DNA of 60,276 nucleotides, counting the filler, from Nemertoderma westbladi (Eukaryota; Animalia; Xenacoelomorpha), in NCBI GenBank assembly GCA_032718475.1. It is 3 parts of 3 records of this genome, joined end to end, with 100 filler letters (N's around TTAATTAATTAA, not from the genome) between each part and the next. Parts side by side here need not be neighbours in the genome. Positions count along the whole stretch, not along the records: positions 50,653 to 60,276 come from JAUCBJ010000920.1; 2 more parts are not named here. One strand, written 5' to 3'. The position numbers were made by a program, and so were the translations under genes. Under the pieces are notes generated by a model that saw only the letters and a list, made by a program, of their open reading frames with translations, was not told the origin of the DNA and ran no database searches. How positions within the stretch are numbered: position 1 is the stretch's first letter; each line of letters opens with the position of its first letter. Shown here one piece after another: positions 53,060-57,360 of this stretch.

Positions 53060-53168
53060 GTTTGATCGGGAAGTCGATATTGGTATCCCGGATACAACTG
53101 GTCGACTCGAGATTCTACGGATTCACACGAAGAATATGAAACTAGCTGAGGACGTCGACTTAGATCAG
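53060..53168 (+). CDS. VCP: VCP internal exon
   Basis: TTTTTTCAG acceptor; [37 protein letters not shown]; donor CAG|GTAAGG. Confidence 0.93.
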
Positions 53169-56100
53169 GTAAGGGGACTCGAACGGGTACGGATTCACAC
53201 GAAGAATATGAAACTAGCTGAGGACGTCGACTTAGATCAGGTAAGGGGACTCGAACGGGTACGGATTCACACGAAGAATCTGAAACTAGCTGAGGACGTC
53301 GACTTAGATCAGGTAAGGGGACTCGAACGGGTACGGATTCACACGAAGAATATGAAACTAGCTGAGGACGTCGACTTAGACCAGGTAAGGGGACTCGAAC
53401 GGGTACGGATTCACACGAAGAATATGAAACTAGCTGAGGACGTCGACTTAGATCAGGTAAGGGGACTCGAACGGGTGCGGATTCACACGAAGAATATGAA
53501 ACTAGCTGAGGACGTCGACTTAGATCAGGTAAGGGGACTCGAACGGTACGGATTCACACGAAGAATATGAAACTAGCTGAGGGCGTCGACTTAGATCAGG
53601 TAAGGGGACTCGAACGGGTGCGAATTCACACGAAGAATATGAAACTAGCTGAGGACGTAGACTTAGATCAGGTAAGGGGACTCGAACGGGTACGGATTCA
53701 CACGAAGAATATGAAACTAGCTGAGGACGTCGACTTAGATCAGGTAAGGGGACTCGAACGGGTGCGGATTCACACGAAGAATATGAAACTAGCTGAGGAC
53801 GTCGACTTAGATCAGGTAAGGGGACTCGAACGGTACGGATTCACACGAAGAATATGAAACTAGCTGAGGGCGTCGACTTAGATCAGGTAAGGGGACTCGA
53901 ACGGGTGCGAATTCACACGAAGAATATGAAACTAGCTGAGGACGTCGACTTAGATCAGGTAAGGGGACTCGAACGGGTACGGATTCACACGAAGAATATG
54001 AAACTAGCTGAGGACGTCGACTTATATCAGGTAAGGGGACTCGAACGGGTGCGAATTCACACGAAGAATATGAAACTAGCTGAGGACGTAGACTTAGATC
54101 AGGTAAGGGGACTCGAACGGGTACGGATTCACACGAAGAATATGAAAGTAGCTGAGGACGTCGACTTAGATCAGGTAAGGGGACTCGAACGGGTACGGAT
54201 TCACACGAAGAATATGAAACTAGCTGAGGATGTCGACTTAGATCAGGTAAGGGGACTCGAACGGGTACGGATTCACACGAAGAATATGAAACTAGCTGAG
54301 GACGTCGACTTAGATCAGGTAAGTGGACTCGAACGGGTGCGGATTCACACGAAGAATATGAAACTAGCTGAGGACGTCGACTTAGATCAGGTAAGGGGAC
54401 TCGAACGGGTGCGGATTCACACGAAGAATATGAAACTAACTGAGGACGTCGACTTAGATCAGGTAAGGGGACTCGAACGGGTACGGATTCACACGAAGAA
54501 TATGAAACTAGCTGAGGACGTCGACTTAGATAAGGTAAGGGGACTCGAACGGGTGCGGATTCACACGAAGAATATGAAACTAACTGAGGACGTCGACTTA
54601 GATCAGGTAAGGGGACTCGAACGGGTACGGATTCACACGAAGAATATGAAACTAGCTGAGGACGTCGACTTAGATAAGGTAAGGGGACTCGAACGGGTAC
54701 GGATTCACACGAAGAATATGAAACTAGCTGAGGACGTCGACTTAGATCAGGTAAGGGGACTCGAACGGGTACGGATTCACACGAAGAATATGAAACTAGC
54801 TGAGGACGTCGACTTAGATCAGGTAAGGGGACTCGAACGGGTACGGATTCACACGAAGAATATGAAACTAGCTGAGGACGTCGACTTAGATCAGGTAAGG
54901 GGACTCGAACGGGTACGGATTCACACGAAGAATATGAAACTAGCTGAGGACGTCGACTTAGATCAGGTAAGGGGACTCGAACGGGTGCGGATTCACACGA
55001 AGAATATGAAACTAGCTGAGGACGTCGACTTAGATCAGGTAAGGGGACTCGAACGGGTACGGATTCACACGAAGAATATGAAACTAGCTGAGGACGTCGA
55101 CTTAGATCAGGTAAGGGGACTCGAACGGGTACGGATTCACACGAAGAATATGAAACTAGCTGAGGACGTCGACTTAGATCAGGTAAGGGGACTCGAACGG
55201 GTACGGATTCACACGAAGAATATGAAACTAGCTGAGGACGTCGACTTAGATCAGGTAAGGGGACTCGAACGGGTGCGGATTCACACGAAGAATATGAAAC
55301 TAGCTGAGGACGTCGACTTAGATCAGGTAAGGGGACTCGAACGGGTACGGATTCACACGAAGAATATGAAACTAGCTGAGGACGTCGACTTAGATCAGGT
55401 AAGGGGACTCGAACGGGTACGGATTCACACGAAGAATATGAAACTAGCTGAGGACGTCGACTTAGATCAGGTAAGGGGACTCGAACGGGTACGGATTCAC
55501 ACGAAGAATATGAAACTAGCTGAGGACGTCGACTTAGATCAGGTAAGGGGACTCGAACGGGTACGGATTCACACGAAGAATATGAAACTAGCTGAGGACG
55601 TCGACTTAGATCAGGTAAGGGGACTCGAACGGGTTCGGATTCACACGAAGAATATGAAACTAGCTGAGGACGTCGACTTAGATCAGGTAAGGGGACTCGA
55701 ACGGGTGCGGATTCACACGAAGAATATGAAACTAGCTGAGGACGTCGACTTAGATCAGGTAAGGGGACTCGAACGGGTACGGATTCACACGAAGAATATG
55801 AAACTAGCTGAGGACGTAGACTTAGATCAGGTAAGGGGACTCGAACGGGTACGGATTCACACGAAGAATATGAAACTAGCTGAGGACGTCGACTTAGATC
55901 AGGTAAGGGGACTCGAACGGGTTCGGATTCACACGAAGAATATGAAACTAGCTGAGGACGTCGACTTAGATCAGGTAAGGGGACTCGAACGGGTGCGGAT
56001 TCACACGAAGAATATGAAACTAGCTGAGGACGTCGACTTAGATCAGGTAAGGGGACTCGAACGGGTACGGATTCACACGAAGAATATGAAACTAGCTGAG

Positions 56101-57288
56101 GACGTCGACTTAGATCAGGTAAGGGGACTCGAACGGGTGCGGATTCACACGAAGAATATGAAACTAGCTGAGGACGTCGACTTAGATCAGGTAAGGGGAC
56201 TCGAACGGGTACGGATTCACACGAAGAATATGAAACTAGCTGAGGACGTCGACTTAGATCAGGTAAGGGGACTCGAACGGGTTCGGATTCACACGAAGAA
56301 TATGAAACTAGCTGAGGACGTCGACTTAGATCAGGTAAGGGGACTCGAACGGGTGCGGATTCACACGAAGAATATGAAACTAGCTGAGGACGTCGACTTA
56401 GATCAGGTAAGGGGACTCGAACGGGTGCGGATTCACACGAAGAATATGAAACTAGCTGAGGACGTCGACTTAGATCAGGTAAGTGGACTCGAACGGGTAC
56501 GGATTCACACGAAGAATATGAAACTAGCTGAGGACGTCGACTTAGATCAGGTAAGGGGACTCGAACGGGTACGGATTCACACGAAGAATATGAAACTAGC
56601 TGAGGACGTCGACTTAGATCAGGTAAGGGGACTCGAACGGGTACGGATTCACACGAAGAATATGAAACTAGCTGAGGACGTCGACTTAGATCAGGTAAGG
56701 GGACTCGAACGGGTACGGATTCACACGAAGAATATGAAACTAGCTGAGGACGTCGACTTAGATCAGGTAAGGGGACTCGAACGGGTACGGATTCACACGA
56801 AGAATATGAAACTAGCTGAGGACGTCGACTTAGATCAGGTAAGTGGACTCGAACGGGTACGGATTCACACGAAGAATATGAAACTAGCTGAGGACGTCGA
56901 CTTAGATCAGGTAAGTGGACTCGAACGGGTCGGATTCACACGAAGAATATGAAACTAGCTGAGGACGTCGACTTAGATCAGGTAAGGGGACTCGAACGGG
57001 TACGGATTCACACGAAGAATATGAAACTAGCTGAGGACGTCGACTTAGATCAGGTAAGGGGACTCGAACGGGTACGGATTCACACGAAGAATATGAAACT
57101 AGCTGAGGACGTCGACTTAGATCAGGTAAGGGGACTCGAACGGGTACGGATTCACACGAAGAATATGAAACTAGCTGAGGACGTCGACTTAGATCAGGTA
57201 AGGGGACTCGAACGGGTACGGATTCACACGAAGAATATGAAACTAGCTGAGGACGTCGACTTAGATCAGGTAAGGGGACTCGAACGGG
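53116..57288 (+). repeat. 72-bp tandem array (58 copies) spanning the VCP 5' splice site
   Basis: Unit = 53 nt of exon end + 19 nt of intron start; donors from 53169 to 57270 (4101 = 57x72 - 3). Confidence 0.96.
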
Positions 57289-57360
57289 ATAATAACTCCA
57301 ACCATCTTCTCTAAATATTGTTTATCTACTCTCTACATCACATTGGTTTAATCTGTGTAG

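What the first reader, a model, noticed from the sequence alone, without database searches (positions are those of the whole stretch)
53104..57360. VCP 5' splice site amplified 58-fold as an in-frame 72-bp array
Seen: the unit is the last 53 nt of a VCP exon plus the first 19 nt of the intron, so there are 58 near-identical CAG|GTAAG donors. The unit is 24 stop-free codons. Donors 2-6 would insert 24-120 aa in frame in the D1 helical subdomain; 1-bp deletions near 53545, 53832 and 56930 make all later donors non-productive. The last donor leaves a 91-nt intron (57270-57360), probably the ancestral one. GACTCGA occurs in the exon (53104) and intron (53176) exactly 72 nt apart, a plausible seed microhomology. 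Each CAG|GT is also a potential recursive (AG|GT) site. Inference: an essential gene must select one donor among dozens of identical competitors, remove them by re-splicing, or use them as a tunable NMD/isoform switch.
Basis: partly seen in the sequence, partly recalled or inferred. Interest (0 to 1): 0.82.

Follow-up and report, generated by a model that had tools for sequence, protein, structure and literature searches.

The report
Splice-donor "mirage" minisatellite in VCP
In an animal's VCP gene, the end of one exon and its splice signal are copied 58 times into the next intron; this repeat type is already known from lancelets and humans, recurs at four other exon borders of the same gene and in many other genes of this genome, and is likely harmless because the first signal is likely the one used.

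Summary
The array is real in the assembly: 58 donors on a 72-bp period (53116-57288) in the only VCP copy found. Only donors 1-6 give an open frame, and first-donor splicing rebuilds an intact 774-aa VCP. It is a junction-spanning minisatellite ('mirage'), as in human F7/CBS/IFI6 and lancelet genes, where the first donor is used exclusively or mostly. It is not special to this site. VCP has such arrays at 4 of 10 donors and 1 of 10 acceptors. In other genes, 21 of 144 donors but 4 of 132 acceptors are spanned (about 3 expected each). The excess came from the first sample (19 of 103); a second gave 2 of 41, not significant alone. Recursive splicing is unsupported: the unit scores below all 99 real acceptors. 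A tuned isoform switch is unsupported: 8 of 25 donor units are multiples of 3, the chance rate. GACTCGA may be a product of the duplication, not its seed. No RNA was available, so donor choice is inferred. This scan already noted the same kind many times elsewhere in this genome, often far larger. The open question is why arrays favour donors.

The parts
50657..52613 (+). 38-bp acceptor array, 51 copies here (24 nt intron end + 14 nt exon start); cut by the contig start; two more blocks of about 113 copies lie on contig C922
   Evidence: 0 of 50 upstream acceptors gives an open frame
52600..52897 (+). VCP exon, D1 ATPase core (about aa 260-359 of P0006)
52898..53059 (+). 162-nt intron without array, strong acceptor (score 14.9)
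53060..53168 (+). VCP exon of 109 nt; its last 53 nt are the exonic part of the repeat unit
53104..53110 (+). GACTCGA in the exon, in register with GACTCGA at 53176-53182; seed or product of the duplication
53116..57288 (+). 72-bp donor array, 58 copies, three 71-nt units
53169..53174 (+). Donor 1 (CAG|GTAAGG), the only one that gives normal-length VCP
53568..53570 (+). TGA reached after the first 1-nt deletion; closes the frame for donors 7-58
57270..57360 (+). Last donor to acceptor, 91 nt; acceptor weak (score 5.0)
57361..57524 (+). VCP exon, D1 lid (aa 396-449 of P0006, 87% identical)
60143..60203 (+). Next VCP exon, 61 nt; the gene continues on contig C5620

Best explanation
The array is a junction-spanning minisatellite ('mirage'): a 72-bp piece covering the exon end and its donor was duplicated and then likely expanded by ordinary minisatellite turnover, and it is likely tolerated because splicing would use the first donor and remove the other 57 with the intron. 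Shown: the array, its anatomy, the intact frame through donor 1, and the same structure at other junctions of VCP and other genes. Inferred: slippage or unequal exchange as the growth mechanism; first-donor choice by 5'-to-3' scanning or exon definition from the strong upstream acceptor; removal of any leak through donors 7-58 by nonsense-mediated decay. A small leak through donors 2-6 is possible, as in IFI6 and CBS. The array has no dedicated function; this genome makes such arrays often, more at donors than at acceptors in my sample.
For: One high-identity match per VCP segment in the assembly. 11 exons joined by first donor and last acceptor give 774 aa without a stop, 85-87% identical to the best animal VCPs. 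The same gene has independent arrays at 4 of 10 donors (25-29, 35, 72, 51 bp) and 1 of 10 acceptors. In other genes 21 of 144 donors are spanned, on 17 contigs in the first sample. 17 of 25 donor units are not multiples of 3, so donor 2 would shift the frame; first-donor use must be the rule for these genes if they are functional (inference). Variant units recur in blocks (lag 4: 6 pairs; lag 6: 4 pairs), as expected from unequal exchange. In F7 minigenes only the most upstream donor is used with 1-12 repeats (PMC1557585). Lancelet mirages do not disturb splicing (PMC3087553; PMC3902484).
Against: No RNA for this locus, so donor choice is not shown. Four downstream copies are perfect CAG|GTAAGT and score higher than donor 1 (13.1 vs 11.0); in F7, perfect sites took about 70-90% of splicing when placed just downstream, though here the nearest is 1,150 nt away. 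The last donor makes a 91-nt intron that an intron-defining spliceosome could prefer. The F7 tests are mammalian and cover at most 12 repeats. Copy number rests on one assembly.
Confidence: 0.75

Rival explanations
1. Donors 2-6 are used substantially and under control, giving longer VCP isoforms or an NMD-based dosage switch.
For: The unit is 24 stop-free codons and donors 2-6 are in frame. The D2 donor array of the same gene is also in frame (51 bp). IFI6 and CBS use two extra donors (as cited in PMC1557585).
Against: In-frame units are at the chance rate, 8 of 25. 0 of 221 VCP sequences carry such an insertion. The insertion falls inside the AAA lid. The array is young (98% identity).
Confidence: 0.07
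2. The intron is removed stepwise: a downstream donor is used first and the retained units are re-spliced at regenerated AG|GT sites.
For: 56 of 58 junctions read CAG|GT. The separate 38-bp acceptor array fits this better: its units have a pyrimidine-rich stretch, and the upstream exon joined to a unit would give a donor at the 54th percentile.
Against: The 72-bp unit as acceptor scores -1.0, below all 99 real acceptors (5th percentile 4.0). Exons ending in AG are not enriched among donor arrays: 11 of 19 vs 53 of 84.
Confidence: 0.05
3. The array, or its length, is an amplification or assembly artefact.
For: The assembly is fragmented (9,163 contigs) and VCP is split over three contigs. An 8.1-kb block in the upstream VCP intron is duplicated at 99%. 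No reads could be laid.
Against: Both ends of the array have unique flanks on one 9.6-kb contig. It has 17 distinct unit types with block structure. Equivalent arrays elsewhere are only 81-94% identical internally, which an assembler would not make.
Confidence: 0.05
4. On the origin only: there is no donor hotspot. Arrays arise everywhere in this repeat-rich genome, short introns force them onto junctions, and selection removes those at acceptors.
For: 31% of the first 986-kb sample is tandem array. With the array-start rate of the first 25 intron nt, 12.8 spanned donors are expected against 21 seen (P 0.022). The second sample alone is not significant (2 of 41; P 0.07-0.8).
Against: Against the rate 25-500 nt into introns, 3.3 are expected vs 21 seen (P 7e-11), while acceptors sit at expectation (4 vs 3.7). 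The intronic part of the unit is 23 nt or less in 24 of 25 arrays (KS P 0.0015).
Confidence: 0.35

Closest known systems
Human F7 intron 7 37-bp VNTR, with the IFI6 (6-16), CBS, LMNB2 and PDGF cases it cites (Borensztajn et al. 2006, PMC1557585; read parts 1 and 3 of 6: abstract, introduction, part of results)
   Same: First monomer spans the exon-intron boundary, so identical donors are repeated in the intron. F7, LMNB2 and PDGF use only the authentic donor; IFI6 and CBS also use two more.
   Different: 58 copies against 5-26; 53 exonic nt against 4 in F7; five such junctions in one gene; donor use untested here.
Amphioxus 'mirage' minisatellites: Adh3, globins BflGb6/BflGb9, troponin C, PGBD5 (PMC3087553 and PMC3902484, matching passages only; the Adh3 and troponin C papers were not read)
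   Same: Invertebrate; tandem copies of donor or acceptor boundaries; units 10-160 bp (Adh3 10-72 bp); suggested to be general in that lineage; mRNA spliced normally.
   Different: Reported copy numbers are 2-7 for globin and PGBD5 against 58 here and up to about 180 in my gene sample. The passages read give no genome-wide count or donor/acceptor bias.
Recursive splicing at intronic AG|GT ratchet points (recalled, no paper read)
   Same: AG|GT junction in every unit.
   Different: No acceptor-like sequence before the AG; the intron is only 4.2 kb.

Membership tests
Junction-spanning minisatellite ('mirage') | Head-to-tail units of minisatellite size | tested here: met
   72 bp x 58, 98% matches
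Junction-spanning minisatellite ('mirage') | First unit spans the exon-intron boundary and the splice signal is repeated | tested here: met
   53 exon + 19 intron nt; 58 of 58 keep GT
Junction-spanning minisatellite ('mirage') | Host gene intact through the authentic site | tested here: met
   774-aa open frame over 11 exons; first exon(s) not located
Junction-spanning minisatellite ('mirage') | mRNA spliced at the authentic (first) donor | not testable with these tools
   No RNA run listed; no contig with the next exon's motif
Junction-spanning minisatellite ('mirage') | Length polymorphism or somatic instability | not testable with these tools
   One haplotype only; no second VCP contig found
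Junction-spanning minisatellite ('mirage') | Concerted turnover of units | tested here: inconclusive
   Variant units recur at lags 4 and 6; no null model was run
Recursive splice site | AG|GT juxtaposition | tested here: met
   All 58 junctions are AG|GT
Recursive splice site | Functional-strength acceptor (pyrimidine tract) before the AG | tested here: not met
   Score -1.0, below all 99 acceptors of this genome's sample
Recursive splice site | Stepwise intermediates in nascent RNA | not testable with these tools
   No RNA
Regulated alternative-donor / NMD switch | Frame-keeping units selected, or the isoform seen in homologues | tested here: not met
   8 of 25 units are multiples of 3; 0 of 221 VCPs have the insertion
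Regulated alternative-donor / NMD switch | Conserved in related species and condition-dependent use | not testable with these tools
   No relatives held for G000; no RNA

The most novel reading that the evidence does not exclude
This genome has a mutational hotspot tied to 5' splice sites: duplications end within about 25 nt after the donor, perhaps through transcription- or splicing-coupled DNA exposure, and seed minisatellites at roughly one donor in seven among the conserved genes sampled. It would then be a natural, genome-wide test of first-donor choice with tens to hundreds of identical competitors.
Probability: 0.3. Interest if true: 0.65.

Novelty: new member of a known kind. Interest (0 to 1): 0.27.

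Why it matters
The VCP array alone is an ordinary member of a class described in humans and lancelets, and a mid-sized one for this genome. What could matter is the scale and bias. One essential gene has five such junctions, and donors are hit about five times as often as acceptors in my sample. If that holds on a full annotation, it points to a splice-site-linked source of tandem duplication and gives many natural cases for testing how a spliceosome picks one site among many identical ones. It also explains why genes break across contigs here, and gene predictors can misread in-frame arrays as exons.

Tried and rejected
RNA evidence: no RNA holder was listed for 52600-57600, so no reads could be laid; an exact 26-nt motif of the next exon found 0 stretches in metagenome contigs. 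Neither bears on expression. Second VCP copy: none; other hits are 27-59% identical AAA paralogues. Host taxon: a quick 36-row tree (careful search unfinished) put the protein with arthropods at SH-aLRT 85, an open fork, and outside the clade holding the one named ctenophore; several animal phyla were not sampled, so the host is left as 'animal'. My first reading that donors 54-58 are productive was wrong: the stop at 53568 remains. Idea that intronic arrays generally carry donor motifs (for example as U1 landing pads): 8 of 54 sense vs 3 of 54 antisense, shuffled mean 2.8, max 8; at least 2 of the 8 are continuations or copies of donor arrays, so not supported. AG-ending exons are not favoured among donor arrays. 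Validation of the donor excess in a second sample was not significant alone, and the two samples differ (Fisher P 0.039). Literature searches showed no genome-wide count of junction-spanning arrays in their listings; the library lacks most subscription papers and no supplements were opened, so this is weak. PMC10078293 and PMC12783039 (passages) did not bear on it.

Full report
Observation. The window stretch 50653-60276 is the whole contig G000:C920. TRF finds a 72-bp array at 53116-57288 with 58.0 copies and 98% matches. It holds 58 donors from 53169 to 57270; units 6, 10 and 53 are 71 nt. Donors are 52 CAG|GTAAGG, 4 CAG|GTAAGT and 2 AAG|GTAAGG. Of 57 complete units, 54 are 72 nt and 26 equal the consensus; mean pairwise difference is 1.1 nt. 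Only donors 1-6 give an open frame; donors 7-58 meet a TGA at 53568.

The gene. The exon at 52600-52897 matches solved VCP/p97 chains. A full-length animal VCP finds one high-identity match per segment, on three contigs: C922 (aa 22-260), C920 (260-472) and C5620 (466-801). Eleven exons joined at the first donor and last acceptor of each intron give 774 aa without a stop, 85-87% identical to the best hits; the first exon(s) were not located. The junction lies in the AAA lid. Among 221 of 236 fetched VCPs that show the motif, 217 have the same spacing and 4 differ by -5 to +6 residues; none has a 24-aa insertion.

Same gene, five junctions. The donor after aa 207 carries a 25-29-bp array (35 copies). 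The donor after aa 260 carries a 35-bp array (6 copies) plus two displaced 34-bp blocks of 10. The next acceptor carries a 38-bp array (113, 113 and 51 copies over C922 and C920). The donor after aa 395 is the finding. The donor after about aa 672 carries a 51-bp array (38 copies). That is 4 of 10 donors and 1 of 10 acceptors. None of the 50 upstream acceptors in the window gives an open frame.

Other genes. I took exon edges from family matches (myosin, kinesin, chaperonin, AAA), not chosen for repeats, and refined splice sites by a motif score, without RNA. Of 210 edges, 8 were dropped as non-junctions or duplicated fragments. 19 of 103 donors and 4 of 99 acceptors lie inside an array that starts in the exon. 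By eye two more donors qualify and one acceptor does not; the counts keep the automatic rule. All four families contribute (8/46, 4/27, 2/9, 5/21). Tandem arrays cover 304,890 of 986,158 sampled bases, VCP contigs included. From the array-start rate 25-500 nt into introns and the mean period, 2.95 donors and 2.67 acceptors are expected (P 4e-10 and 0.28); with the rate of the first 25 nt, 9.8 donors (P 0.006).

Result against that reading. A second sample (kinases, DEAD helicases, P-type ATPases, adaptins, HECT, three more chaperonin exons), run with the same array rule and a slightly stricter edge margin, gave 95 edges. 21 were dropped (continuing frames, very low scores, duplicates, contig ends). 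2 of 41 donors and 0 of 33 acceptors are spanned, against 0.5 and 1.0 expected (P 0.09 for donors). These genes are mostly intron-poor and the sample is 14% array. The samples differ (P 0.039). Pooled: 21 of 144 vs 4 of 132 (Fisher P 0.0007). Junctions within a gene are not fully independent, and the sample is conserved families only. The prevalence is thus uneven and the hotspot is probable, not established.

Unit anatomy. Among 25 donor arrays (21 plus 4 in VCP), 8 have a period divisible by 3, the chance rate. The intronic part is 23 nt or less in 24 of 25; mean fraction 0.35, KS P 0.0015 against uniform. Microhomology at the breakpoint biases this slightly toward the exon. In VCP, GACTCGA is in register but ends 5 nt before the identical part begins. 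65 exon nt from 53104 plus 7 intron nt also give 72, so the intronic copy may come from the duplication, followed by a 5-nt change spread through the array. Array-wide differences from the exon are seen in other arrays. Seed and product cannot be told apart without an outgroup.

Mechanism. Scored with matrices trained on this genome's sites, donor 1 is strong (11.0; 75th percentile 10.9), the upstream acceptor very strong (14.9), the downstream acceptor weak (5.0), and the unit as acceptor -1.0, below all 99 real ones. This argues against recursive use of the 72-bp units and fits definition of the 109-nt exon by its own flanks (inference). In human F7, identical downstream donors are functional but silent, with 1-12 repeats, unless they are perfect consensus (PMC1557585, parts 1 and 3 read). 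Four copies here are perfect CAG|GTAAGT, the nearest 1,150 nt downstream. No RNA could be examined, so first-donor use is inferred.

Known systems. Junction-spanning minisatellites are described for human F7, IFI6, CBS, LMNB2 and PDGF, and as 'mirages' in lancelet Adh3, globins, troponin C and PGBD5, where splicing is reported as normal (passages of PMC3087553 and PMC3902484). The three structural features I could test are met; splicing outcome and length polymorphism were not testable. Earlier notes of this scan on other pieces of this genome describe the same kind (64 of 79 notes fit the look-up, 8 shown), some with thousands of copies and some reporting RNA joined at the authentic site. These are unchecked AI notes; I took the name 'mirage' from them and checked it in the papers, but did not test their RNA claims.

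Verdict. Real, a new member of a known kind, and likely neutral. Interest 0.27. The part worth following is the donor bias across the genome.

Noticed in passing
window 50657-52613 and G000:C922 6165-10464, 14296-18580: 38-bp array of the VCP acceptor plus exon start, about 277 copies in three blocks. Every upstream AG in the window leads to a stop. Units end in TAG|GTGCGT, so this array is a better candidate for stepwise splicing than the finding.
   Followed up: partly
G000:C5620 (L054/L055), donor after about aa 672 of VCP: 51-bp donor array, 38 copies, 17 codons in frame, at the D2 position equivalent to the D1 finding; the frame breaks after about 3 units.
   Followed up: partly
G000:C922 about 6180-22415: 8.1-kb tandem duplication at 99% identity inside the VCP intron, holding displaced donor and acceptor arrays; retroelement-like frames lie in the same intron. 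Real or assembly duplication is unknown.
   Followed up: no
G000:C9136 136388-137813 (L093) and on: Myosin donor array of 102 bp x 14, in frame (513-aa open frame), followed by a nested 38-bp array of the same donor (188 copies).
   Followed up: partly
G000:C9136 93001-97251: The 42-bp unit of the donor array at 54747 recurs 40 kb downstream, just before the next matched exon; the intron may be mostly this array.
   Followed up: no
window 33913-43310: 21-bp array (443 copies, 81%) inside an intron of a PP2A B''-type EF-hand gene, rich in donor-like words but starting about 300 nt after the nearest likely donor.
   Followed up: no
window 15291-20195: 1,634-aa open frame of a Pao/BEL-type retrotransposon (PF05380, PF18701, PF17921).
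   Followed up: no
G000: Most kinesin, kinase and DEAD-box domains are matched without introns, while VCP, several myosins and some kinesins are intron-rich with array-filled introns: two kinds of gene architecture in one genome.
   Followed up: no
G000:C633 49630-52919: Myosin head positions 91-121 match at three places 1.5-1.7 kb apart, suggesting whole-exon duplication.
   Followed up: no
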